Assembly (NCBI RefSeq): GCF_006345805.1
Contig: NC_043026.1
Coordinates: 13,681,579 to 13,745,578 of the forward strand
Source of the DNA: Octopus sinensis
Taxonomy: Eukaryota
DNA: 64,000 nt
Reading direction: 5' to 3'
The translations under genes and the position numbers were made by a program. Positions 21,714 through 54,022 of the stretch are shown one piece after another. The notes below the pieces were generated by a model. It searched no databases and was not told the origin of the DNA. It was given only the letters and a program-made list of their open reading frames with translations. Positions within the stretch are counted from its first letter, which is position 1. Each line of letters starts with the position of its first letter.

Positions 21714-22498
21714 ATTAACCCTTTCGTTACCAACCCGGCTGAAACCAGCTCTGGCTCTCAATACAAATGTCTTGTTTTCAAAAGTTCTGAATTAAAATCT
21801 TCCACCAAAACTTAGTCACAATTTATGTTCCTAACACTAGCTTAATGATAACTAAGTTATTTTACTAAACTTTTTGTTATATTTAAAATTAATTGAAAAA
21901 AGCACAGAGCATCTCAACAGAAATATGGTAACAAAAGGGTTGAAATATACAATAGAGAAACAATTCTTAACCCTTTTTGGTACCAACCTGGTTAAAACCA
22001 CTTCTGTCTCTGTAGTACAAATGTCTTGTTTTCATAAGTTTTGAATTAAAATCTTCCACCAAACCTTAGTCGCAATTTATGTTCCTAACACTAGCTTAAT
22101 GATAACTAAGTTATTTTACTAAATTCTTTGTTATATTTAAAATTAATTGAAAGAAGCACAAACATCTCAACAGAAATATGGTAACAAAAGGGTTGAAATA
22201 TACAATAGAGAAACAATTCTCAACCCTTTTTGGTACCAACCTGGTTTTGTTTTCATAAGTTTTGAATTAAAATCTTCCACCAAACCCTAGTCACAATTTA
22301 TGTTCCAAACACTAGCTGAATGATAATTAGGTTATTTTACTAAATTCTTTGTTATATTTAAAATTAATTGAAAAAAGCACAGAACATCTCAACAGAAATA
22401 TGGTAACAAGTTGTTTTACTAAATTCTTAGTTATATTTAAAATTAATTGAAAGAAATACAGAGCATCTCAAAATAAATACAGTAACAAAAGGGTTAAT
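21714..22498. mobile_element. Tandem piggyBac-type MITEs (TTAA-CCCTTT...AAAGGG-TTAA)
   Basis: Three-plus ~220-bp units with TIR ccctttcgttac/gtaacaaaaggg, ending ~30 bp before the CHTOP acceptor. Confidence 0.75.
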
Positions 22499-22540
22499 AT
22501 CCTCTGTGTTTTATCATTCTCTTTGCAGATATCCAATAAG

Positions 22541-22602
22541 ATGGCTCAAGTCCCTGCTAAGATAGTGCTAAAGAGCACTACAAGGATGTCACTGAATGAC
22601 CG
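22541..22602 (+). CDS. CHTOP: CHTOP/FOP first coding exon (MAQVPAKIVLKSTTRMSLND-R); exon begins at 22529
   Basis: Pyrimidine tract and ttgcag acceptor at 22528, ATG at 22541, donor CG|gtgaga at 22603. Peptide closely matches the vertebrate CHTOP N-terminus (APKVVLKSTTKMSLNER). Ends in phase 2. Confidence 0.93.
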
Positions 22603-23004
22603 GTGAGAAAATATTGCCTTCCGTTTGGAAATTGATTTTATTTCAACTTGGCTTTGCTCAGGCAGATCATATATATATATATGTATATATATCTATATAT
22701 ATATATGTATATATATCTATATATAAATATATATATATATTTATAAATATTATATATATATTATAATATTATATATATATATTTGATATATTATAAAAAT
22801 TATATATAATTTTATATATTGTGAATATATTTTATATATACAAATATATATATTTTATATATATATTATAAACATATTATGTATATTTTTATATATATAA
22901 AGGAAGTATGCTTTCAAAATGGTCTGCGAAATAAATATATATATTTGAATAAAGTTAAGTTTATGAAAATGCAACAAAAGTGCTACCCTGATGACTTATT
23001 ATGT

Positions 23005-23475
23005 GGGTTGGTGGCTCTGGCGGCGGCCCCAGCAGCATCGGTTGTGGGACTCGGTCGTCGAGGGGGAGAGGTGAGGGTGTGGGTGAGTGTAGAGGGGGCC
23101 CTGTGCGTGGCGTCTTGACTCGGGCTGTGATGTCGGAGGGGGCCCTGGCCCACTCTTCCGTTGCCTCCTCGTCCATGGTATGATGGGCCGCAATCTCTCA
23201 CCCCCGTGCGTCTCGCTCCGAGTTGTTCATGGCCACGCCCTCTTTTGGGTTTACTCCGCTACACTGCATTCCACCCTCACTCCCTGCCTCCTCACCACCC
23301 TGTGTCTCTTCTCGACTCCCCACTTGCCATTCCTCTCCATTTCAGCATACTCTATCATCACCATATCTCTCTCTCTCTCTCTTTTTCGGCCATCAACATG
23401 TCCTCAAAGACTGATTCTCTCCCTCCTTGTCGATTCTTGTCCACAACTTGCCAGCCAGCCAGCCAACCAACCGAC
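23005..23475 (+). promoter_or_regulatory. Putative structured intronic RNA element (nested imperfect hairpin with G-runs)
   Basis: Several nested complementary helices with G-U pairs (see findings); GC-rich and single-copy in this window. Confidence 0.6.
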
Positions 23476-23749
23476 TAACCAGCCAGCCAGCCAGCCGGCT
23501 GGTGGTGACACACAACAGTTGCCTCTCTTTTCTTTTGTCTTTCTTTCTTTCTTTCTTGCTCTCTTCCTCTGTTGTTGTGTTGCCTCACGTCAGCCCACAG
23601 TCACAGTGGTAGCCACAACTGAGCTTAATTCCAAAAAGGGCAAAAAAAAATAATAAATACCACATAATATCTATACATGTCCATGTATATACACTCTCTC
23701 AATACACACATACACACACACATATATGCATATAAATATATATACATAC

Positions 23750-23799
<50 letters not shown>

Positions 23800-24084
23800 G
23801 TGTATATATATATATATGTATTATATATATATATATATATAATATATTATTATAGATGCATAAATGTATACGTGTGTATAGTTGTGTGCATGCATTGTAT
23901 ACAATTTATGCACATACTGTGGTAAGTGTATACATTCCAGCTCTGATCCTAAAATGCTACAAAGTGGTGTGTAGAATTTACATGTGTATATAAATGTTTG
24001 TATGCATATATATATATATATATATATGTTTATATGGACGCACGTTTCTGGATTAGAGTCATAAGATTAATTTCCTTTATCAAC

Positions 24085-24256
24085 ATAATATTCCGGTAAA
24101 TATATCTATAAATGCTAGGAAATCTTACCTTCTATATTTCCGACCAAGCGACGTGGATATGCTGATTAGCTTCTGTATGTTCCGATGTCGCTTGGTCGGA
24201 AATATAAGAAGGTAAGATTTCCTAGCGTTTCTTAGATTTATTTACCGGAATATTAT
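24085..24256. repeat. Foldback inverted repeat (~60-bp arms)
   Basis: ataatattccggtaaat...ttccgaccaagcgac pairs with gtcgcttggtcggaa...atttaccggaatattat. Confidence 0.85.
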
Positions 24257-25886
24257 ATATGTATATATATATATATTCTTTTATTTGTTTTAGTCATTTG
24301 ACTGCAGCCATCCTGGAGCACAACAATTAGTTGAACAAACCGATCCTAGTACTTATTCTGTCGGAATCTTTTGCTGAACTGCTAAGTTACGGGGGACATA
24401 GTAAACACACCAGCATTGGTTATCAAGCGATGGGGTGGAGGGACAAACACAGACACACAAACATACACATATTTGTATACAACGGTCTTCTTTCAGTTTC
24501 CATCTACCAAATCCATTCACAAGGCTTTGGTCGGCCCAAAGCTATAGCAGAAGACACTTCCCCAAGGTGCCACGCAGTGGGACTGAACCCAAAACCATGT
24601 AGTTAGTAAGCAAGATTCTTACCATGCAGCCACTCATGCACCTTAATATATATATATGTATATATATATTATAGTGTGCTAGCCTGTTGGAATACCCTGG
24701 TCTGTACCTTGCTGTACTCAAGAAGACCCAACCTCCACAGTAGAAGCATGAAGGCTGCATCTCTTGGTGAAGGGGATTGGCCTGCAAAAGTTTTGTGCTG
24801 GTGCCACATGAAAGTGCTTGTGCCAATGGCATGTATATGCGCGCTCGTGCAAGTGCCACTTGAAAAACACCCAGCGCACACTGTAAAGTGGTTGGCATTA
24901 GGAAGGGCATCCAGCTGTAGAAACCAAACCAAATTACCCTAGAATCCAGTGCGGCTCTCTGGTCTGGCTTGCCAGCTCCAACCCATGCCAGCATGGAAAA
25001 ACACATCAAAGGATGATGATGATGATGATTTTACCGCACCAGGCAACTGAGAGCAAAAACAAATTGCAGCATAAAGAAAATAGAACATATTTCTCCCTAG
25101 AAAAGTGCTTGCGAACATCCAGATTAGATATATCAATGAAACAGGCCCCTTTTGCAAAGTCATCCTCTTCCCCAATGCCCGCTCTGATATGGTCTTGGAA
25201 AAGTGACTGCATTCCAGGTTCAGATGGGAGTCCTTAGCTCATGCTGCCTTGCTCTTGATAGCAAGTGCCAATGAGCCATTGGCCCTATGGGGCTGTCCAT
25301 CACCACTTCTGATAAGGCAGCCAAAGGGTTTCAAATCAGGAGGTATTTGGGGCTTAAAAGATCAATGTCTTTGGGGAGTGGTTTACACCTTTTTCTTGCT
25401 GCATGTGTATTGCTCTCTCTTTCTTCCTTTGGACATGTACCTGATGTCCTCATCTGCGATGCATCATACAGTGGACTCTGCCACCTTGAGATTGGAGGCC
25501 CTGCAATATGCTAAATTTTTCAATGTTTGTGTCCAGGGCCTTTTTCCTGGTAAAACTCACCCACTCCGATGACTACAGTCTACTAAAGTTGTGTTCACAA
25601 ATGGCTGGCATACCTGATATATATATATATATATATATATAATTAATTAATAAGGGTGAGAGAATTAGATACTAATTTAATAGTATATTTATTCAACACC
25701 AAGTGGCCTAGTGCTACGAGAAACCTGGATTATTATAATATTTTATAACATATTATAATATTTTTACAAAATAAATATAAGAGAGTGGTAGTCGTACTGG
25801 CTTTCATGGGAAACATATATTTCGTGGTTGAAACCTTTTGGATTAACTGGTGCTAGAGTGAGCAATATAGTGACCACTCTCTTATA

Positions 25887-25919
<33 letters not shown>

Positions 25920-26514
25920 TGCATGCATGTTTATATACACTCTCAGACACCTCAGTAGCCAAGAAAAATATATTACCAACATAATAATATAATGTTCTGT
26001 GCTTGCATGAAAAAGAAAAAAAATAACAATATGATAATATTGAGGATCAAATCCAGAGCTGGGATCGTCAGAAATAAGATTTCTGGTTTTGCTGCAACTC
26101 CCTTACCCTTTGCCATCACAACATTCTCCTTCTCTATCTCTCTGTCATACACACTTTTGTGTAAGCCCATTGCTTTCTTAAATACCATACCTCACTTGAG
26201 AGAGAGTGAGGACGTACGCAGCCTTGATGACGGAACCTAAACCATCCACGTCGATCCTGAATGGCTGCGTCTCTGCCACTCTTGGCTCCTCACCATTTCT
26301 ACTGCCTCTGTTCTTCTGCTGGCACACTGTTCTTTCTTTCTACCCTCGTGTCACACTGTGCCATTTCTGTTTTCACCATACTACTGTTCTACCTTCTTTT
26401 GGACTTTGGTATGACCTCTTCACTACGGTCCCTATTCCGTCCCACACCTTGTCCAATGGGTCTACATCCTGCCACTCCTACTCCCTAATCACTTCCACTC
26501 ACCTGTATCTAGCA

Positions 26515-27090
26515 CTAGCAGTATTGCCTGGCTCAACGGGGGTTTAAGGGAGTCGCTGGCGATGTATCGTGATGATCAAAAATCCGGCCTGCTAAAATTT
26601 GGTTAAAGTGATTCAAACTGCAGACTCAACGCAAAATGGTCACATTTAATTCAAAGCGTTAAAAATGTTATGAAAACAATTGGTATGTGTTCACAAAGTC
26701 CAAACGATTAATACGAAAAAACCCTCCAGGCTACATCCCGAAAATTCATTTCTTTGCCGAATTTCTACAATGTTTACGGCGATTCGTTTTTATATCTTGA
26801 TTTTTTATTTTTTCATGCAATTTACGCATGCTTGCACGCGTGGTGAACACAGTTCACGTCAAACAGCTGACTGAGTAAAGTTCACTATTCAATGCATGGG
26901 ATAAGGCCTAAACAAACACATTATCGATTTTTGCACTTGTGAGATGAATTTCGGAACAGAAATAGCGCAGTTCAATTTCACTCGCCTAAACTTTAAGTGA
27001 CCCATTTTTGATGGTTCTACGATTTGTTGGCTAGATGTGCCAGGAAGTTAAACACAGAGACACACAAGTTGAGTTTTATATATATATAGA
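26515..27090 (-). mobile_element. Non-autonomous Helitron (different internal sequence)
   Basis: Minus strand starts tctatatatataaaac and ends ...gccaggcaatactgCTAG|T. Confidence 0.65.
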
Positions 27091-27199
27091 TGTCTCTAAC
27101 TCTTTTAAGATGGAATTGTGTGGATCATAGAAATTTAGCTGCCGTTTCTAACAGGCTAACCGACTTTATTGAGACTTTCTAGTTGCACTGTACTATATT

Positions 27200-28220
27200 T
27201 AGTTATCGCTGTTGAACCCTAGGTCTGCTCTGATCCAGACGTTTCAGCTGTTACCTTCCTTTATTCAGGCAAAGTCTACCTAAGCCTACATTACTCAATG
27301 TATCCTTCCTTGTTCTTGTTGCTTTGCTCCAGAGGTGACCATCATGTCATTTATGTAGACATAATGTATCTAGGACTACACTATCCATTGTGTCCTTCCT
27401 AGCTCTTGTGGTTTAACCCTAGGTTGGCTCTGTTCCAGCTCATGATCATCCTGGCTTCTATTGAAATGGATTGTGTCTCTGACTGCATTATTTAATGTGC
27501 CATTCCTAGTTTTTGGTCCAGAGGTGACCATCCTGTCATATAGTTTAACATAGTGTATCTAGGACTACATTATCTAATGTGTCATTCCTAGTTCTTGTTT
27601 AGCCACAGGTCAGTCCTGATCCAGCAGACCTATGATCAAAGATATTCCAGCTGTGACCATCCTGTCTTTTATTATTCAGGCATAGTGTATCTAGGAGTAC
27701 ATTAGCTAATGTGTCCTTCCTTGTTGTTGTTTAGCCACAGGTCGGTCCTGATCCAGTAGACCTATGATCGAAGACATTCCAGCTATGACCATCCTGTCTT
27801 TTATTATTCATGCATCGTGTATCTAGGAGTACATTATCTAATGTGTCCTTCCTTGTTGTTTAGCCACAGGTCTGTCCTGATCCAGTAGACCTATGATCAA
27901 AGACATTCCAGCTGTGACCATCCTGTCTTTTATTATTCATGCATCGTGTATCTAGGAGTACATTATCTAATGTGTCCTTCCTTGTTGTTGTTTAACCACA
28001 GGTCGGTCCTGATCCAGCCTGCTCCAAAGTACTACTGGAGGTAACTAGCCTGTCGTTTATTCAGACATAGTGTACCTAAGAGTACATCATCTAACGTGTC
28101 CTTCGAGTCTTGTTTAGCCCCAGGTCAGTCTTGATCCAGGTCCAGCATGATCATAAGTGCCACCAGTGGTGACTGTTCTGTCTTCTATTCTGGCAGTGTG
28201 TGTCAGCTGACACCATTCCT
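27200..28220. repeat. ~120-bp diverged tandem repeat
   Basis: Recurrent gtgtatctaggagtacattatctaatgtgtccttcc and gtcctgatccag. Confidence 0.85.
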
Positions 28221-28654
28221 TCCGTCCTTCCTTGCTGCTATTTCTAGCAAGTCAAAGTGACCCTACAGCTGCTGCCTTGTCGATTCCTCGTTAGGAATTT
28301 AGTTAAAACAAACAAATAATAATAATAATAATATTTAGAGTAAAATAGGCAACAGTCAACCTGAATGGCTGTCTGTTTCTCTCCCAAATTGCTGTTGTGG
28401 ACACCAGTCGTTAGTGAACTAATTAACGAGTAACAAGCATTAGTATGGTACACTGGTAGTTCAGTTAGTTACCAGGTCGGGTGTCAATTGGAGTAATTCT
28501 ACACCTCCCCCGCCATCAAAGCTGGCCTTGGTCTTTTTTTTTTTTGTTTTTGTTATTGTTACATGTTTCAGTCATTTGACTGTGGCCATGCTGGGGCACT
28601 TATGCATGTTTCAGTCATTTGACTGCAGTCGTGTTGGGGCACAGCTTTCACATC

Positions 28655-29192
28655 AGCCCCCCACCACTAGGCTCCAGCCATCAGGCCCCCACAACTAGGC
28701 TCCAGCCACCAGACTCCAGCCATCAGGCCCCCACCACTAGGCTCTGGCCAGCAGGTTCCACCACCAGGCTCCAGCCATCAGGCTCTGGCCAGCAGGTATT
28801 ACAACCAGGCTCCAGTCATCAGGCCCCCACAACAAGGCTCCAGCCAGCAGGTCCCTCCACAAGGCTCCAGCCATCAGGCCCCATCCACCGGCTCCAGCCA
28901 TCAGGCCCCCACCACCAGGCTCCAGCCATCAGGCTCTGGCCAGCAGGTATTACAACCAGGCTCCAGTCATCAGGGCCCCACAACAAGGCTCCAGCCAGCA
29001 GGTCCCTCCACAAGGCTCCAGCCATCAGGCCCCATCCACCGGCTCCAGCCATCAGGTTCTGGCCAGCAGGTATCACTACCAGCTCCCAACCATCAAACCC
29101 CAACCACCAGGCCCCAACAGCAGGTTCCAGCCGCCAGGCTCCGACCATCAGGCCTCATCACCAGGCTCCAGCCATCAGGCCCCCAACCACCA
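28655..29192. repeat. GC-rich minisatellite (aggctccagccatcaggccccca...) with higher-order duplication
   Basis: Seen directly. Confidence 0.9.
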
Positions 29193-30637
29193 GTCTGTGG
29201 ACCATTTCATACTTGGTGATGCAGAAAGAATATAAAAAAGGTTGACGGGGCGGCGGGGACTGCTGCCACTGTTCCAGTTCGTTTCTACTTCCGTATCACT
29301 TTCTCCTCATCATTCATCATTCTCATCTCATCATTCGCCCCCATTTGTGACACCCCTGAAAAGACACCTCAGTTTGGTGCTGAACATAATTAGGGTGTCC
29401 ACCCCACTCTACCATCTATCTCTCTCTTGAAAGAAGGGAGTGTGCAGCATGGAATTTCAAAAGCTCAGGTAGTATATATATATACATCTACATTGCTCTT
29501 ATATTTCATATGTATATAAAATATATATATGTGTATATATATATATATCTTAAGTGCTTATTTGATTGCATTGGAAAAAAAAAGCTTTTATCAAGCAACA
29601 ACATTTTGCCAACAAAATCATAATAATGATAATAATAATAATAATAATAATAATAATTTGCAAATGAAAAACGATGTGGTAAAATAAATAAAAATTTGCA
29701 AAATCCTAAAACCCTCAAAACGGATAAACATATATTTATGCAAATATATGTAATATATTATTATGTTTAATGTGTGTAATGATTAAATGAAACAGCATGT
29801 GGCATAAGAAAAATTTGAAGAGAAAAAAAAAAGAGAATCGAAAAACTTGCTCAAGGCAAGATTCTCATGCTGAGTGGCCTCAACACAACATACACTTTGT
29901 ATTTTTTGCCCTGCATAATTTTTGCTCACGATATTTCTGCTGCTGTTTCCACAACTCCACCCCTGCCTTGCCCCGCCCTTCTCTTCTCTTCTCTCTCTGA
30001 TCCCCATCATTGATGTCTGTCTTAGCTGCAGTGGCCCAGCACAGTTGTGGAACAGTACAGCATCCCCTCATCATCATCATCTTCATCGTCATCTTCATCT
30101 GACCACCTCTTGTAAGACAAAGGTGCAGGCACTTGTTTATCTTCCAAGTGCTCTCTCTCTCCCTCTGTCTCTCTCCGTCTGTCTCTCTCCCTCTGTCTCT
30201 CTCCGTCTCTCTCCCTCTGTCTCTCTCTTTCTCTGCTTTTTGGTCCCTTTTATTCGATCTGGTGTATGTCTCGTTTTTTGTTTGGACTTCAATTGTATTC
30301 CCCCAATAACTGGCTTTATTTACTGGGTCATGGGTCAAGTTTCATCTCAGGTGCTTTCAATTTTGCATCCTTGCTTTGAATCCCCACATTCACTCTTTCC
30401 TCCTTCCCCGCTCTCTCTCTTTCCATTTTCATTTACAATAGAGTGTCTGCTTTTTTATGGACTTATCAGGGTTCACCATTCTGTACCCTTACTTAATCCA
30501 CTTCTATTTGCACATCCACTTCTGCTCCTTCTCTCTCTCTCTGTCACACAGTGTGTGTGTATGTGTTTACATATATAGATGTATATATATATATATACAT
30601 ACATGTGTATATATATATACATGTGTTTATATATATA

Positions 30638-31026
30638 CTAGCAGTATCGCCTGGCGTTGCTCGGGTTTGTTTCGACCCGCTGGAATTGAAATTTTTGAAA
30701 AGTAAAAATTTTGCATTATGTAGCTTGTTATTCTCTTCAAGTGAACATTTTTCTGGTTGAAATACACCAAAAAGTGGCGACACAGCAGTGAAAAAAATCG
30801 TAAAAAATAGGGATTTTCATAGAAAAAAAGTACCTTTTTGATGTAAATAATTTTTGGTGTTAACATGGTCCGATTTGAATTTTATCTTCTACGGAAGGAA
30901 GATCAACCCTTCTATCATACTCTCAATTTTGGTCAACCTGTGCCACAGGGTCTCGGAGGAGATAGTGTTAATTGAAGGCTACCAAACCTGGCGCACACAG
31001 ACAACTTCAGCTTTATATAGAGAGAG
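30638..31026 (-). mobile_element. Non-autonomous Helitron
   Basis: Minus strand tctctatataaagctgaagttg... to cccgagcaacgccaggcgatactgCTAG|T; termini shared with 3238-3735. Confidence 0.78.
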
Positions 31027-31512
31027 ATAACACACACACATCTATGTATGTATGTATGTATATATGTACATCTGTCCACTTCTTGCCATATTTTTATCCT
31101 TCACTTCCTACACACTCTCACACACAGACACACACACACCTTAGCTTACTATTTTCTCTCAACAATTGACACTGTCATATATGTATATGTTTGCGTGTCT
31201 ATGTGTGTAAAGAGAAAGTGGGAGAAAGTGTGGTAATAGGCGGAGTAAAGCCTTTGAAGTGAGAGAGGGAAATCGTAAAATATTGAGTTTTTTCCAAATT
31301 TTTGCTTAATTGGGGGTCAAATTGAAAGAAAGTTATATGCCATGACTGAATCAAATCTACTTCGAAAAATCATAGGTAAATTCTAATTGAAGAAATTCTA
31401 TATCGTAGAATTGTTTTAAAAAGGAACATGGGAACAGGCAGAGAAAATCTGCCTTTTATCATAAGAGATATATATACATGTGTATATATATATACATACA
31501 TGTGTATATATA

Positions 31513-31557
<45 letters not shown>

Positions 31558-31600
31558 ATATATATTTAAAAAAGGAGATGTGGAACACGAGTTGTGATAG

Positions 31601-31907
31601 ATAAAAAAAGGAAATGAAGAAAATGCTGACAAAATAATTTAAGTAAGGGAGAGTGTATTTAATTAGGTGAAAGTTCTTTTTACCGGTTGCGCATTTGTTA
31701 TGCTTATCAAAAGATATTTTTTTAAGTGAGATAGAGTTCCTTTCTGATAGATTTTTTTATCAGAAAGGAACTCTATCTCACTTAAAAAAATATCTTTTTG
31801 ATAAGCATAACAAATGCGCAACCGGTAAAAAGAACTTTCACCTAATTAAATACACTCTCCCTTACTTAAATTATTTTGTCAGCTTTTTCTTCATTTCCTT
31901 TTTTTAT
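31601..31907. repeat. Near-perfect palindrome, ~149-bp arms, 8-nt loop
   Basis: 31601-31749 is the reverse complement of 31758-31907 with only a couple of differences. Confidence 0.95.
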
Positions 31908-32271
31908 ATATATATAGATATGTGCATATATTTATGTTTGTGTGTATGTCTACATGTATGTGTGTATATGTATATGCACACAATCACAAATCTGAAACAC
32001 TAATCACGCATCAACATACCCCCAAAGTGCTCATTCTTTCTGTTCGTTTCTTCTTTCACCCAACCCACCCCTCACCTTTTTCCTTTTCTATGTCGCATCT
32101 TATTTACTTTGTCTTATTCTCCTAACTATTTTGAGATACGACCTGAGCGTTTCGTTGGTTTTATTATCACAGACTTACCTAGATATGTTTCAGGGAAATT
32201 TATACAAGTTATGTTGTATCCATAGATAGATTTGTGGGGCTTCTAGTGACTCCCTGTTAATCGTCCAATGT

Positions 32272-32912
32272 ATAGCAGCACTTGGCCCTTCAGCACATAG
32301 CAGCCCAGTTGGTCCTTCAGTATATAACTACCTCAGTTGGTATTTCAGCATATAACAACCCCAGTTTGTCCTTCAGCATAGAGCAGCCCCAGTTGGTCCT
32401 TCAGCATATAGCAACCCCAATCAGTTCTTCAGCATATAGCAGTCCCAGTTGGTCCTTCAGCATATAGCAGCCCCATTTGGTCCTTCAGCATATAGCAACC
32501 CAATCAGTTCTTCAGCATATAGCAACCCCAATTGGTCCTTCAGCATATAGCAACCCCAATTGGTCCTTCAGCATATAGCAACCCAATCTGCTCTTCAGCA
32601 TATAGCAACCCCAATTGGTCCTTCAGCATATAGCAACCCCAATTGGTCCTTCAGCATATAGCAACCCCAATTGGTCCTTCAGCATATAGCAACCCAATCA
32701 GTTCTTCAGCATGTAGCAAACCCAATTGATCCTTCGGTGCATAGCAACCCCAATCGGTCCTTCAGCATATAGCAACCCAATCAGTTCTTCAGCGTATAGC
32801 AGCCCCAGTTGGTCCTTCAGCATATAGCAACCCAATCAGTTCTTCAGCATATAGCAACCCCAGTTGGTCTTTCAGCATACAGTAACCCCTGTCAGCCCTA
32901 AGCATATAGCAC
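32272..32912. repeat. ~28-bp minisatellite (cagcatatagcaaccccaattggtcctt)n
   Basis: Seen directly. Confidence 0.93.
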
Positions 32913-34268
32913 ACCTAGTAATCTCAGTTGGTCTGAGCAGTTCCCAAAACTCTGTTGGTCCTTCAATATAACAACCTTTCGTTGCTCCAGAGTATACCAA
33001 ATTACCATAACCAATACTGATTTATTTCTGGTAATTCTACAGTGGCAAGCTAGCGGAATCATTACCATACTGGAAAAAAATGCTCAGAAGCATTTCTCTG
33101 GCTCCTATGTTCTTAAGTTCAAATGCCACCGTGGTCAACTTTTGCTTTTCATCCTGGGGTCAATGTAATCAACTTTTGCTTTTCATCCTGGGGTCAATGT
33201 AATCAACTTTCCCCTTAAATTTGAAGCCTTTTTGCTTATAATAGAATTATTAATGCTAAATCTTATTTAATTTTCGTAAAGTATACTAGCCATCTCAATA
33301 TAGCTAACCACTAAGGGTGGGTGTTACTGTAGCTTGTAGCCCCAAGAGATCATCGTCTCTAGCTGGCTTTAGGCACACTTTCTGTGCACTTATGGTATTT
33401 GCAAAGGGAGGTCATTCCTATCTCGTCAACCTAAGTGATACGCTCGAACTGTAGTTTCGAGGTTGTTGCCTCTTGTCAACGTACGGCAATCACCGGTTTT
33501 ACATCTCGTTCAGAGATTTATTATTGCTTATTTTATTTTATTTTGAGAAAACTTCGAAGCCATTCAATCTCTTTCTTTCTTGCTGTTATCATCATCCCAT
33601 CATCGCATCATCATCATCACTACTTTCATTTCTCTTGTCATCATTATAATCCTTGTCATTATCATCAGTTCTTTTACTCTCCCTCATCAGCTCCTTAATC
33701 ATCATTTCTCCGACATCGTCGTCACATCACTTTGTTGAGACGAAAGGATTTTTTCTTCTTTTTTTCCTTCTTGTTTGAAACTAATTGAAACGAGCAAAAA
33801 AAAAAAACCCCAAAAAAAAGACAAAGTGAAAAACACAACCATCATGACGATTGATATGATTAATAATAATAATAATAATAATATTAATAATAATGTTGGC
33901 AAAATAAGCATATGAAATATATAAATATATATTTGCAAATACATAAGGGCAAAATGAAAAATATTAAAGAAAATAAACAAAGGCCTAAGTTTATGATTAT
34001 TTTGGGCTCATGTAATATGTTGTTGTGATTTTATGGTTGTGTGTGCCACAAGCCACATTTAACGACCACAATGTGTCGCCGTGGCTCTCCTTTCCCCCTC
34101 TCTCTTTTTCTCTCACTCTCCGCTCCCCCTTTCTCTCTCTCTCTTTCTGTTACTCCCCCGGCCCCATGCCCCGATCCCTTGCCGTGGCCCCGTGCCCCCC
34201 TCTCCGTCCCCCCCTCAGTTCGTAAGTGATGAATATACTTTACCGCCCTCCTTTCCCCCCACATGAAG

Positions 34269-34422
34269 CTTCACGAACATACAGAAGAGTCGTCCACCCG
34301 TGACGGTCCAGAACATTCGTGCCAAGATGGCGGCACAGCAGCAGGCGTCGGTGCGGAACCGTAGGCTAGCCCAGCAGATGGCTAACCGACCGAGCGTGAT
34401 CGCGGCCCTGAAGATCAAGAGG
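34269..34422 (+). CDS. CHTOP: CHTOP coding exon 2 ([52 protein letters not shown])
   Basis: Acceptor gaag|C completes the CG-C Arg codon; donor AGG|gtaaga. Matches CHTOP 'FTN...NIRA...[23 protein letters not shown]'. Confidence 0.95.
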
Positions 34423-34504
34423 GTAAGACTGCATTTTTTCATCTCCTTTGGCTCTGTCTTACTGGCTATCTACCCCTGTTTGTCTGTGTCTATCTTTTAT
34501 CCTC

Positions 34505-36935: not shown

Positions 36936-39900
36936 GAGTGCATTACCTTGTAGCTTCAAGTGATTATTTGGTTTTAGAAGAATATTGTAGGGTAGGTGTG
37001 AGGGGCCAAATCTGGTCTGTGTGAGCATATCACAAGTGGAATACTGTGGCCGGATATGCCTGGTTTAAATGCTAAAGAGTTTATCATACATTACTTTGTA
37101 GCTTCAAGTGAGTGTTTGTTTTTAGAAGACTATTGTAGGGTTGGTGTGAGAGGCTGGATCTGCCCAGTCTTAACATGAAACTGGTAGAATGTTTGGGCCA
37201 TTTCTATGGCTGTTTCAAATGCTAAAGGGTTAAAAACTTATGGGAAAGGAATTTCAGGGTTGCATATTTAGAGAGGAAGGACTAGTTTGAGTGGGAATGT
37301 GTGTTTTTAGTGTATGATGCAGCGGGAGGAGGTGTGACTCAATGAGGAGCCAAGGTGTGGCAATTATGGCCCGTGGGGGAGGGCGCTGTGGTGAACATAG
37401 TCGAGGTGAATTTTAGGGGCTACAATAGAAAAAGTATGGTTGTAGTCTTGGGTCAAGTGGGTAAAGAGTTTGCTTCACAATCATGAGGTCCCAGTTTCAA
37501 GTCTGCTGTGGGGCACGTTGAGTAAGTGTCTTTTACCATGGCCTCAGTGTGACCCCCGAGACGTGTCTCGTGTCCCCTTAAACTTCACCCCTACCATCTT
37601 TGATGTCTTGGAATAATTTTTTGGCAGATAAAAAAAAAATTGAAGTCTTCAGTTCTTTTTTATAGTTTCAGCATTTTTATTAATTCTTTGATTAACATTA
37701 ATGACTTTTACTTCTCGTTATGGTTACGATTTCAAGTTGATTAGTAATTATTTTCAGCTCACTACTACCTTGAGTGCAAGGGTACCGCGTGCACTTGAGT
37801 ATATGTTTTCCATGCAGAAGGCACCCCCCAGTAAAAAAAAAACAATTTTCAATATTTGTCACATGTATATATATATATATATATATACATATATACATGT
37901 ATATGTATGTATATGAATACATATATATATATATTCTTTTATTCTTTTACTGGTTTCAGTCATTGGACTACGGCCATGCTGGGGCACCGCCTTCAAGGGT
38001 TTTAGCTGATCATATTGACCCCAGTAACTATCTCAGTCAGGTATTTATTCATAATATGTGTACGTTTACGTCTAGAGTTGCATATGAGAAGAGTACTCAG
38101 TACATGTAGTAGAGTATATATTTTGTGTCAAGTCAACCGTTCATTCACTCCTTGGCTACTCGGAGTATTTATTCTTTTGCATGAAAACTCTCATTCAGGC
38201 TCTGTATGTTTGTATTTATTTATTTATTTATATCTTTTATTCTTTTGTTCCTTTTTTTCACTTGTTTCAGTCATTAGACTGGTGCCATGCTGGAGCACCG
38301 CCTTGAACTTTTAGTCGGACGAATCCACCCCCACCCCCCCAGTACATATTTTTTAAAGCCTGGTACTTATTCTATCGGTTTCTTTTGGAGAACTGCTAAG
38401 TTACGAAGAATGTAACAGACTGTCTAGGGGACACAACTCGACCTTTTTAACTCTCAAAAAAAAATTTACCGTAATTTTTTTTCCATTTTTTGGCTATAAC
38501 TCTCTAAAAATGCTTTATAGTTATTTCCCTTACAAACCCGAGCAACGCCGGGCGATACTGCTAATATACATATATGTATGTATGACTGGCTTCTTTCAGT
38601 TTACCAAGTCCCCTCACAAGGCTTTGGTTGGCCTGAGACAATAGTAGAAGAAACTTGCCCAAGGTGCCACGCAGTGGGACTGAACCCAGAACCATATGGT
38701 TAAGAAGCAAGCTTTTTACAACACAGCCATACCTGCGCCTATATATCATTTCTCTTTTACTTGTCCTTGGACTGCAGCTATGCTGGGGCACTACCTTAAA
38801 GGGTGTGGTCAAAACAAACTGACCCTAGTATTTATTTATTTTTTAAAGTCTGGTACTTGTTCTGTAGGACTTGTTCGCCGAACCACTTAGCTATGGGGAC
38901 ACAGACCAACATCGGCTGTTGAGCAGTGGAAGGAACATTCACACACACACAGCGGGTTTCCATGAAGCACTGGTCAACCTGGAGCCATTATAGAAGGCAC
39001 TTGAGGCTAAGGTGCCATGCAGTGGAACAGAACCCAGAACCACATGGCTGGAAAGCAAGCTTCTGAACCGCACAGCCATACCTGTGCCTATAACGAATAT
39101 TAGTGGAAGCAGTATGATGTAAAAGACATTTTGATATATTTTACAATCCTAAAGTGGCGACATCGGTGTTCAGCATGAGGCTCTCAAGGAAGAAGTAGGG
39201 TGACATGACATCAGGAAGTTTCGTATCCCGGAAACCAGGGCTTGTCTCCCGGTGGTTGGTATGAATAGAGTTAGTTGTATAGAATTTGATATTCTGAATC
39301 TTCTGTTGGTTTATGATGGCATCCCTGTTCACATGATGAGATCATCATCGTTTAACGTCCATTTTCCATGCTAGCTTGGGTTGGCCGATTTTGACTGAGG
39401 GCTGGCGAACCAGATGGTTGCACCAGGCTCCAGTCTTGATCTGGCAGAGTTTCTACAGCTGGATGCCCTTCCTAACGCCAACCACTCCAACAGTATAGTG
39501 GGTGCTTTTTACGTGCCACCAGCACGGGGGCCAGTCAGGCGGTACTGGCAATGACCTCGCTCGAATCTTTTTACATGTGCCAGTGAAGCGGCGTTGGTAA
39601 CGATCATGCTCGAATGGTGCCCTTTTACGTGCCACGGGTACGGAAGCCAGTTGGCTGCTCTGGCAACGATCACGCTCGGATGGTGCTCTTGGCACCCTAC
39701 TATCACAGGTATGAGTGCCAGTAAGGCGACGCTGGTAACGATCATACTCGAATAGCCACTCTGTCAACGATCACACTTGTATGGTGCTCTTTGCAACCCG
39801 CTAGCACAGATGCCAGTCATCGAAATGATTTTGATTTTCATTTCACTTGCCTCAACAGGTCTTCGCAAGCAAAGTTTAGTGACCAAAGAAGGAAAAGGTA

Positions 39901-48997: not shown

Positions 48998-49008
48998 TAT
49001 ATACATAC

Positions 49009-49041
<33 letters not shown>

Positions 49042-49669
49042 CATACATATATATATACATACATATATATATACATACATATATTATACATACTATATAT
49101 ATACATACATATATATATACATACTGATATATATACATACATACATATATACATACATACATATAACATACATACATATATACATACATACATACATATA
49201 TACATACATACATACATATATACATACATACATACATATATACATACATACATACATATATACTACATACATACATATATACATACATACATACATATAT
49301 ACAATATACATACATACATACATACATACATACATACATACATACATACATACATACATACCTACATACATATACATACATCATACATACATATACATAC
49401 ATATATATAACATACATATATATATACATACATATATATATACATACATATATATAATATATATATACATATATATAATATATATACATAATTATATATA
49501 TATACAATATATATATATATCTCATACATATATAATATATATATATACATATATATATATACATATCTATATATACATATATATAAATATACATTACATA
49601 TATATATATATACATATAATATATATATATATACTATATATATATATAACATATATATCTATATATACA

Positions 49670-49703
<34 letters not shown>

Positions 49704-49949
49704 ATATACATATCTAATATATATTATATATAATACATATATATATATATATATAATATATACATCTTATATATATATATACATATATATATATACATAT
49801 ATATACATATATATATATACATATATAACATATATATAATATATTATATATAATATATATAATATATACATATATATACATATATACATATATATACATA
49901 TACATACATATACATATACATACATATACATTACATACATATCATATAC

Positions 49950-49980
<31 letters not shown>

Positions 49981-50290
49981 CAATACATATACATACATAT
50001 ACATATACATACATATACATATACATACATAATATACATATACATACATATACATATACATACATATACATATACATATATATACATATACATATACATA
50101 TACATACATATACATATACATATATATACATATACATATAATACATATACATATATATACATATACACATCTATATACATATACATATTATATATACATA
50201 TACATTATATATAATATAACATATACATATATATTATACATACACATACATATACATATACATACATATACATATACAATACCTACATAT

Positions 50291-50326
<36 letters not shown>

Positions 50327-51731
50327 CACATACATATACATACACATACATATACATATACATACACATACATATACATACACATACATATACATACACA
50401 TACATATACATATACATACATATACATATACATATACATACATATACATATACATACATATACATATACATATACATACACATACATATACATATACATA
50501 CACATACATATACACATACATACACATACACATACATATACATACACATACATATACATATACATACACATACATATACATATACATACACATACACATA
50601 CATATACATACACATACACATACATATACATACACATACACATACATATACATACACATACACATACATATACATACACATACACATACACATACATACA
50701 CATACACATACATATACATACACATACACATACATATACTAACACATACACATACAGATACATACATAGACACCTACATATACATACACATACACATACA
50801 TATACATAAACATACACATACACATACATATACATACACATACACATACACATACATACACATACACATACACACACGACACATACACATACATACACTA
50901 CACATACACATACACACACATACACATACACATACACACACATCACATACACATACACACACATACACATACACATACACATACATACACATACACATAC
51001 ACCATACCATACACATACATACACATACACATACACATACATACACATACACATAACACATACAATACACATACACATACACATACATACACATACAACA
51101 CACATACACATACAATACACATACACATACACATACATACACACCAACACATACATACACATACATACACATACATACACATACACATCACATACATACA
51201 CATACACATACACACCATACACATACACATACACATACATACACATACACATACACATACATACACATACACATAACACATACATACACATACACATACA
51301 ACCTACACATACACATACACATACATACACATACACACACACACACATACACATACACACACATACACATACACAATACACATACATACACATACACATA
51401 CACACACATACACATACCCATACACACACATACACATACATCACATACACATACACATACACATACAACATACATCACATACACATACATACACATACAC
51501 ATACACATACCATACACATACACATACCCATACATACACATACACATACATACACATACACACATACATACACATACACATACACCACATACACATACAC
51601 ATACACACACATACACATACACATACACACACATACACATACACATACACATACATACACATACAACATACATACACATACACATACCCACTACATACAC
51701 AACACATACACATACATACACATACACATAC

Positions 51732-51762
<31 letters not shown>

Positions 51763-52582
51763 TACATACACATACACATACACATACATACACATACACA
51801 TACACATACATACACATACACATACACATACATACACATACACATACATACACATACACATACACATACATACACATACACATACACATACATACACATA
51901 CACATACACATACATACACATACACATACACATACATACACATACACATACACACACATACACATACACATACACACACATACACATACACATACACATA
52001 CATACACATACACATACACATACATACACATACACATACACATACATACACATACACATACACATACATACACATACACATACACATACATACACATACA
52101 CATACACACACATACACATACACATACACACACATACACACACACACATACACATACACACACACACACATACACATACACACACACACACATACACATA
52201 CACACACACACACATACACATACACACACACACACATACACATACACACACACACACATACACATACACACACATACACATACACATACACACACATACA
52301 CATACACAACCACACATACACATACACATACATACACATACACATACACACACATACACAGATACACATACACACACATACACATACACATACACACCAT
52401 ACACATACACATACACACACATACACATACACATACACACACATACAATACACATACCACACACACACATACACATACACATCACACCATACACATACAC
52501 ATACACACACATACACATACACACACACATACACATACACACACACATACACATACACACACACATACACATAACACCACAC

Positions 52583-52615
<33 letters not shown>

Positions 52616-52718
52616 TACACATACACACACATACACATACACATACACACACATACACATACACATACACACACATACACATACACATACACACACATAC
52701 ACATACACATACACACAC

Positions 52719-52753
<35 letters not shown>

Positions 52754-53769
52754 TACACATACACATACACACACATACACATACACACACATACACATAC
52801 ACATACACACACATACACATACACATACACACACATACACATACACATACACACACACATACACATACACATACACACACATACACATACACATACACAC
52901 ACATACACATACACATACACACACATACACATACACATACACACACATACACATACACATACACACACATACACATACACATACACACACATACACATAC
53001 ACATACACACACATACACATAACACATACACACACATACACATACACATACACAACATACACATACACATACACACACATACACTACACATACACACACC
53101 ATACCCATACACATACACACACATACACATACACTACACACACATACACATACACACACACACACATACAACACCACACACATACACATACACACACATA
53201 CACATAACACACCAACACACATCCACATACACATACACACACATACACATACACATACACACACATACACATACACATACACACACATACACATACACAT
53301 ACATACACATACACATACACATACATACACATACACATACATACACATACACATACACATACATACACATACACATACACATACATACACATACACATAC
53401 ACATACATACACATACACATACATACATACACATACAATACATATACATACACACTACACATACATACACATACACATACACATACATACCATACACATA
53501 CATATACATACACATACACATACATATACATACACATACACATACATACACATACACATACACATACATACACATACACATACACATACATACACATACA
53601 CATACATATACATACACATACACATACATACACATACACATACACATACATACACATACACATACACATACATATACATACACATACATATACATATACA
53701 TACACATACATATACATATACATACACATACATATACATACACATACATATACATATACATACATATAC

Positions 53770-53825
<56 letters not shown>

Positions 53826-53879
53826 ATATACATACATACATATACATATATATATATACATATACATATATCTATATAC

Positions 53880-53911
<32 letters not shown>

Positions 53912-54022
53912 ACATATACATATACATATATATACATATACATATACATACATACACATACATATACATATACATACATCTACATATACATATACATACA
54001 TATACATATATATATATATAAC

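What the first reader, a model, noticed from the sequence alone, without database searches (positions are those of the whole stretch)
34085..34268. Strong upstream 'poison' acceptor or 3-nt microexon before CHTOP coding exon 2
Seen: the productive acceptor is weak (catgaag|C, 34268). Fifty nt upstream lies ccccccctcag|TTC|gtaagt, a strong CAG acceptor (34218) after a long pyrimidine-rich tract, followed 3 nt later by a perfect donor (34222). Using only the upstream AG gives CG-T TCG TAA, an immediate premature stop and NMD target. Using both sites gives a 3-nt microexon inserting Ser (ND-R-S-F) and a 47-nt intron. Inference: a splice switch at the same intron that vertebrate CHTOP uses for autoregulation, potentially coupled to the 23.0-23.5 kb structure, whose G-runs could alternatively pair with the C-rich tract at 34150-34215.
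Basis: partly seen in the sequence, partly recalled or inferred. Interest (0 to 1): 0.72.

Follow-up and report, generated by a model that had tools for sequence, protein, structure and literature searches.

The report
Ancient weak acceptor, unproven upstream microexon
In the octopus gene for the RNA-export protein CHTOP, one intron ends in an unusually weak splice signal that is also found in coral-like and clam-like relatives and likely lets the gene hold back its own message, while the stronger-looking signal 50 bases upstream has not been seen in use and is at most a likely extra brake, not a coding mini-exon.

Summary
The motif is there as described: CAG (34216-18), TTC, GTAAGT (34222-27), 50 nt before the productive AAG acceptor (34268) of Octopus sinensis CHTOP. 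No use of it was seen. The one readable spliced contig joins 22602>34269 without TTC, and 117 of 117 CHTOP proteins with the junction read R-F. Assembled contigs and gene models can hide a minor form, so it is not excluded. A Ser microexon needs a 47-nt intron with the donor 20 nt from the branch point; every other use gives an early stop. The proposed pairing with the 23-kb G-runs is no better than shuffles. What holds up is the weak acceptor itself. It is AAG in 8 of 22 animal CHTOP loci (5 of 9 lineage groups, coral-like to bivalve-like), a purine at -3 is implied in oyster, mussel and fish models, and neighbouring acceptors are YAG. Retention gives an immediate stop, as in human intron 2. 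The upstream unit is also predicted to pair with the productive junction (suggestive only). Best reading: conserved retention control, with the upstream unit a non-coding brake or bystander. The scan noted this intron before, in another octopus genome.

The parts
22529..22602 (+). First conserved coding exon (…MAQVPAKIVLKSTTRMSLND-R); second exon of the RefSeq-type model
   Evidence: spliced contigs in X8 and X17
22603..22608 (+). Donor GTGAGA; read-through gives an in-frame TGA at 22604-06 (LNDR*)
   Evidence: the same R-then-stop at the donor in L004, L006, L017, L020, L027, L028, but not L002
22603..34268 (+). 11,666-nt intron splitting the Arg codon (phase 2)
   Evidence: the only coding intron in L002, L017, L020, L028
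23040..23330 (+). Predicted long local hairpin in the 5' part of the intron
   Evidence: arm duplex -118.0 vs shuffles -94.4 +/- 6.2, 0 of 200 as good; whole-region z only -1.71
34059..34116 (+). Distant branch-point candidates for the upstream AG (A34062, A34115)
   Evidence: YTNAY scan; consensus match only
34085..34216 (+). C/T-rich tract inside an AG-free zone (34053-34216); variable between close relatives
   Evidence: 6 substitution and 7 indel rows at 34093-34211
34216..34227 (+). Upstream unit CAG|TTC|GTAAGT; use not seen; 34218-27 also predicted to pair with 34268-78
   Evidence: no differences listed at 34212-34422 in the 4 runs laid (2 organisms)
34239..34243 (+). Branch-point candidate of the productive acceptor (A34242; 26 nt to the acceptor, 20 nt from the upstream GT)
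34266..34268 (+). Productive, non-YAG acceptor AAG after a C-rich tract; shared with distant animals
34269..34422 (+). Next coding exon (FTNIQK…LKIKR)

Best explanation
This CHTOP intron ends in a weak AAG acceptor shared with distant animals, which likely makes the intron slow to splice so that retention and an immediate stop codon would limit CHTOP output, and the upstream CAG-TTC-GTAAGT unit, skipped in the one readable spliced form, likely acts only as a non-coding brake. Shown: the sites, the in-frame stop on retention, AAG at this intron in other lineages, and direct 22602>34269 splicing. Inferred: selection for weakness, regulated retention and feedback by CHTOP (from the human mechanism). 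Also inferred is the brake. Either the 10 nt at 34218-27 pair with the productive junction (predicted helix) and mask it, or when open they draw U1/U2AF to a site 20 nt from the branch point without completing splicing (decoy). Any splicing that does complete there, other than the 47-nt-intron route, gives a stop (RS*, RSAV*, RSH…GF*).
For: Acceptor: AAG in 8 of 22 loci with a callable acceptor, 5 of 9 groups after merging near-identical loci. These include loci 97% identical to Oculina and 91-94% to Mya/Dreissena proteins; L028 ends in the same seven bases as octopus. Read-through peptides imply a purine at -3 in 10 of 21, a pyrimidine in 4, and 7 are undetermined. The purine cases include oyster-like, mussel-like, Ciona savignyi, Danionella and Osmerus records, and some read GAG, so the base changed but stayed non-YAG. 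Control: the 12 other acceptors I could read by eye in AAG-bearing genes are all YAG (5 octopus, 7 in L003, L004, L017, L020, L028). It is the only coding intron in 4 loci. Contigs of X1, X2 and X3 run unspliced from the intron into the exon; these runs also hold spliced joins at 34422. Four fish gene models start inside this intron. Human precedent: PMC5175361; decoys: PMC6097662. Helix: pair probabilities 0.46-0.96 over five windows, -10.5 kcal/mol, 9 of 300 shuffles as good. Stops.
Against: 14 of 22 loci (4 of 9 groups) have CAG, so the weak acceptor is not universal. The runs were chosen for holding these intronic words, are RNA only by guess, and intronic contigs may be ordinary pre-mRNA or DNA; in X8 the intronic contig has depth 12.6 against 255.8 for the spliced one, and contig depth is a poor measure. 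An internal transcription start would look the same. The helix is matched or beaten by 43 of 471 window tiles, has no counterpart in 13 other loci and no covariation could be tested. None of the 8 AAG loci has a YAG…GTRAG unit within 120 nt. The tract just before the CAG gains A residues in organism B. No clear shared hairpin in 7 other introns (best z -0.5 to -3.3 over many windows, 12 shuffles each). Described decoys are 29-200 nt (PMC6097662 passages), not 3 nt.
Confidence: 0.45

Rival explanations
1. The upstream unit is a neutral look-alike: the first AG after a fast-mutating C/T low-complexity tract, followed by chance by GTAAGT. Only the weak AAG acceptor, if anything, matters.
For: The pattern is not enriched over its reversed control (136 vs 274). 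The tract has 13 difference rows among close relatives, and two of three UGC motifs are altered in organism B. There is no such unit in the 8 AAG loci. The helix is within background (43 of 471 tiles).
Against: The strict pattern occurs about once per 20 Mb, yet here lies 50 nt from the acceptor of an intron known for autoregulation in human. The core 34212-34268 shows no differences in 2 organisms, though they are too close for this to weigh much.
Confidence: 0.33
2. One reading: a distant branch point (A34062 or A34115) selects CAG 34218, or TTC is spliced on to a later exon, mutually exclusive with exon 34269. Both give NMD targets and would be the regulated switch.
For: Branch candidates, a 164-nt AG-free zone and a long C/T tract precede the CAG. 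All such products stop early. NMD and contig pruning would hide them.
Against: The one readable spliced contig uses 34269, and X1 and X2 contigs cross 34218/19 unspliced. The human circuit works by retention through exon 2 and 5' intron elements. The AG-free zone follows trivially from an A-poor tract (4 A in 34085-34216).
Confidence: 0.15
3. In-frame 3-nt neural microexon adding Ser (NDR-S-F), included through an SRRM/eMIC-type programme.
For: The frame is kept. Far branch point, far pyrimidine tract, UCUC repeats and UGC at -52, -39 and -26 resemble the architecture described in 10.1101/2024.09.17.613571 (passages).
Against: It needs a 47-nt intron with 20 nt from donor to branch point. Human introns fall off below 65 nt, though 43-56-nt cases exist (PMC4463651); the octopus minimum was not found. 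R-F is unbroken in 117 of 117 proteins, including 8 cephalopod ones. The X8 join lacks TTC. No UGC within 20 nt of the AG; two of three are altered in organism B.
Confidence: 0.05

Closest known systems
Human CHTOP intron-2 retention/NMD autoregulation (Izumikawa 2016, PMC5175361; passages and section 19 read, supplement PDF not readable)
   Same: Same gene, intron after the first conserved coding exon, stop codon at the 5' end of the intron, predicted stem-loop in its 5' part.
   Different: 11.7 kb rather than about 1.6 kb. The paper describes CHTOP as conserved in vertebrates with no yeast, worm or fly orthologue, and maps control to exon 2 and the 5' intron. The passages read do not discuss acceptor strength. 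Feedback is untested in octopus and the human acceptor sequence was not seen.
Decoy exons of large retained introns: SF3B1 i4, OGT, ARGLU1 (Parra 2018, PMC6097662; passages read)
   Same: Paired acceptor and donor inside a >1-kb intron of an RNA-processing gene; completed splicing would give stops.
   Different: 3 nt instead of 29-200 nt, only 47 nt from the terminal acceptor; conservation and junctions under NMD block not shown.
SRRM3/4 (eMIC)-dependent neural microexons (10.1101/2024.09.17.613571; passages read)
   Same: 3 nt, frame-preserving, far branch point and pyrimidine tract, UCUC and UGC upstream.
   Different: Downstream intron of 47 nt, unstable UGCs, no inclusion seen, invariant R-F junction.

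Membership tests
CHTOP intron-2 retention/NMD autoregulation | CHTOP orthologue | tested here: met
   exon peptide 100% identical to named Octopus and Argonauta CHTOP; all exons of P0005 map in order
CHTOP intron-2 retention/NMD autoregulation | Intron at the homologous position with a stop at its 5' end | tested here: met
   fish position; human position inferred from PMC5175361, not aligned
CHTOP intron-2 retention/NMD autoregulation | Stem-loop element in the 5' part of the intron | tested here: inconclusive
   hairpin predicted at 23040-23330; homology to the human element not testable; no clear equivalent in 7 other introns
CHTOP intron-2 retention/NMD autoregulation | Intron selectively retained in processed RNA | tested here: inconclusive
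   3' end of the intron joined to the exon in contigs of 3 runs; selected runs, contigs only
CHTOP intron-2 retention/NMD autoregulation | CHTOP binding, hnRNP H antagonism, NMD sensitivity | not testable with these tools
   needs experiments
SRRM3/4-type neural microexon | 3-27 nt between AG and GT | tested here: met
SRRM3/4-type neural microexon | UGC enhancer between a far branch point/tract and the AG | tested here: inconclusive
   UGC at 34167, 34180, 34193; two altered in organism B
SRRM3/4-type neural microexon | Spliceable downstream intron | tested here: inconclusive
   47 nt, donor to branch 20 nt; below the human 65-nt threshold but rare cases exist
SRRM3/4-type neural microexon | Inclusion in transcripts or proteins | tested here: inconclusive
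   0 of 117 proteins; X8 join lacks TTC; both sources miss minor 3-nt exons
SRRM3/4-type neural microexon | Neural-specific inclusion; conservation in related species | not testable with these tools
   no tissue labels, no raw reads, no squid or cuttlefish DNA
Decoy exon | Splice-site pair in a >1-kb intron | tested here: met
Decoy exon | High conservation | tested here: inconclusive
   core unchanged in 2 close organisms; absent from 8 distant AAG loci
Decoy exon | Junctions under NMD block; sites needed for retention | not testable with these tools
   needs experiments
Poison alternative acceptor (AS-NMD) | Premature stop well upstream of later junctions | tested here: met
   TAA 34223-25, 197 nt before the junction at 34422
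Poison alternative acceptor (AS-NMD) | Junction actually used | tested here: inconclusive
   contigs only; they show presence, not absence

The most novel reading that the evidence does not exclude
The same ten bases are a two-state switch: paired, they clamp the ancient weak acceptor shut and hide their own splice signals; unpaired, they form a 3-nt decoy or poison exon too close to the branch point to be joined to the next exon. This would be an octopus add-on to a CHTOP retention loop as old as the coral-bilaterian split.
Probability: 0.15. Interest if true: 0.72.

Novelty: new member of a known kind. Interest (0 to 1): 0.38.

Why it matters
If the weak acceptor is kept by selection from cnidarians to fish, CHTOP autoregulation is far older than the vertebrate description. 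A one-base test (AAG>CAG) would then show whether acceptor weakness is part of the loop, which the human passages I read do not address. Nothing on this turned up in the listings of searches, but the scan has noted it before in another octopus genome. The upstream unit adds interest only if shown to be used or conserved.

Tried and rejected
No RNA holder listed on record; all runs were contigs, none raw reads. One search lists no joint and no loose end at 34218/19 in 4 runs, and no cover at 34425-34500. One search shows no cover at 22607-22668 in 4 runs and none on the 22529 exon in X1 and X20. These blanks are not used as evidence: contigs drop rare variants, and (recalled) short low-depth tips and 3-nt bubbles are pruned, so the apparent asymmetry between the two introns is unreliable. 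In one search, repeats at 22408-22498 crowded out the loose end behind 22602, so X17's next exon was not readable. Long-range G-arm pairing rejected. Box C/D or kink-loop idea (GTGATGA at 34226): no Rfam match there, and none above gathering score in 22500-34500; CHTOP is not mentioned in the klRNA preprint (passages); dropped. A U12-type reading was rejected by eye (donor is GTGAG). Transposon origin of the unit: single match. Pfam scan of 3 exon pieces: 0 families. Coral ORFs starting at the internal Met are not evidence of retention because that exon runs to the stop. A loose YAG…GTRAG match in 7 of 22 loci (L008-L014, one CAG group) lacks a pyrimidine tract and was treated as chance. Dropped before the acceptor count: L016, L019, L024, L026, L029 (spliced or truncated) and L005 (no acceptor held). 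No source was found for the octopus minimal intron length or background AAG frequency (searches; PMC3250501 passages); about 5% AAG is recalled. PMC8765754 and PMC6547761, passages only, just cite the human loop. The PMC5175361 supplement could not be read and may show the human acceptor. Earlier-findings look-ups were empty; 56 gave nothing on CHTOP.

Full report
Observation. All coordinates check out. The intron 22603-34268 splits an Arg codon. The upstream donor is perfect only on the intron side. The tract before the CAG is C-rich with no A for 42 nt, and branch candidates lie 103 and 156 nt away. The productive AAG has a branch candidate 26 nt upstream. The strict motif occurs 136 times in the genome against 274 for the reversed control: rare, but not enriched as a class.

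Is the upstream unit used? Four runs were laid on 33900-34500 and four on 22400-22668, six different runs of the 24 listed, all contigs. X8 holds a contig joining 22602 directly to 34269 without TTC. X1 and X2 cross both 34218/19 and 34268/69 unspliced; X3 crosses 34268/69 unspliced and continues into the exon at 37960. Of 169 proteins held, 117 carry the junction motif and all 117 read R-F. This shows that skipping occurs and is what gene models capture; it cannot exclude a minor or NMD-degraded form. On geometry, joining TTC to 34269 needs a 47-nt intron with the donor 20 nt from the branch point. Human introns fall off below 65 nt, with rare 43-56-nt exceptions (PMC4463651, passages). All other outcomes stop early: RS* with the AG alone, RSAV* to 45996, RSH…GF* to 37960, and R* on retention.

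The proposed coupling. The G-rich arm at 23040-23150 pairs specifically with its local partner (-118.0; 0 of 200 shuffles as good) but not with 34150-34215 (-79.0; 57 of 200). The long-range pairing is rejected.

What is conserved. A metagenome scan gave 28 animal CHTOP loci, 22 with a callable acceptor. Eight end in AAG and 14 in CAG; merged into lineage groups, 5 AAG and 4 CAG. AAG loci include stony-coral-like (97% to Oculina) and heterodont-bivalve-like (91-94% to Mya/Dreissena) sequences; the other groups were not assigned to a taxon. Peptides that read through the intron imply a purine at -3 in 10 of 21, a pyrimidine in 4, undetermined in 7. This assumes the codon before Phe contains the AG. 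The 12 other acceptors readable in AAG-bearing genes are all YAG. In four loci this is the only coding intron, and read-through stops right after the Arg codon in octopus and six loci, but not in L002. I infer long-term selection for a weak acceptor in many, not all, lineages. No AAG locus has an upstream YAG…GTRAG unit. Cephalopods outside Octopus could not be examined at DNA level.

An unexpected feature. Bases 34218-27, the unit itself, are complementary to the productive junction 34268-78 (10 pairs, one bulge). Pair probabilities are 0.46-0.96 and 9 of 300 shuffles do as well. But 43 of 471 window tiles also do, and 13 other loci show no such arm. If real, the helix would explain most of the splice-like look, since the complement of the exon start reads TTCGTAAG, and it would mask both sets of sites. 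It is a lead only.

Mechanism. I commit at 0.45 to retention control at the ancient weak acceptor, with the upstream unit as a non-coding brake (helix or decoy). Rivals: neutral look-alike 0.33, regulated poison acceptor or exon 0.15, Ser microexon 0.05. Retention in octopus is itself unproven. The intronic contigs come from runs chosen for these words and could be pre-mRNA, DNA or an internal start.

Comparison. It works like human CHTOP intron-2 retention (PMC5175361; passages and section 19), where control maps to exon 2 and the 5' intron. Membership is met on gene, intron position and stop, and open on retention and feedback. It is not filed as a neural microexon or a decoy exon, since the decisive features are inconclusive or untestable. 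One search (CHTOP, microexon) gave one unrelated paper; the listings of searches showed nothing on invertebrate CHTOP splicing. Two earlier unreviewed notes on another octopus genome report the same intron, hairpin and weak acceptor. I saw them after reaching this reading; they are not independent support.

Verdict. Observation confirmed, interpretation partly supported, new member of a known kind, interest 0.38.

Noticed in passing
window 37960-38040: An 81-nt in-frame cassette exon whose start matches a repeat found four more times in the window (SINE-like; label recalled). It is spliced to 34422 in run contigs and present in O. sinensis isoform X5 (P0005) but not in P0002-P0004: a repeat-derived exon in CHTOP.
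   Followed up: partly
P0006 (cuttlefish gene model): An unrelated insert of about 31 aa sits at the same junction after LKIKR, possibly an independent cassette at this position.
   Followed up: no
window 34264-34273: The productive junction is a perfect 10-nt palindrome centred on the splice site (seen by eye); L003, L004 and L017 could form similar 3-5-bp mini-hairpins with the AG in the loop.
   Followed up: no
G000:C30:13661928-13662014 (L031): An upstream exon with an in-frame ATG adds a 26-aa N-terminal extension in the Octopus models; the cuttlefish extension is unrelated.
   Followed up: partly
P0125, P0129, P0146, P0160: Fish CHTOP gene models begin inside the homologous intron and are spliced downstream, a hint that its 3' end is often covered by RNA, or a prediction artefact.
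   Followed up: partly
window 31711-31796: Palindromic hairpin of about 80 nt in the intron hitting several miRNA models below gathering score; probably a small inverted repeat.
   Followed up: no
window 49000-54000: About 5 kb with almost no G on the + strand (GC skew about -1): a long simple repeat in a later CHTOP intron.
   Followed up: no
window 28651-29193 and 32282-32889: Two minisatellite arrays (periods about 27-28 nt) inside the intron.
   Followed up: no
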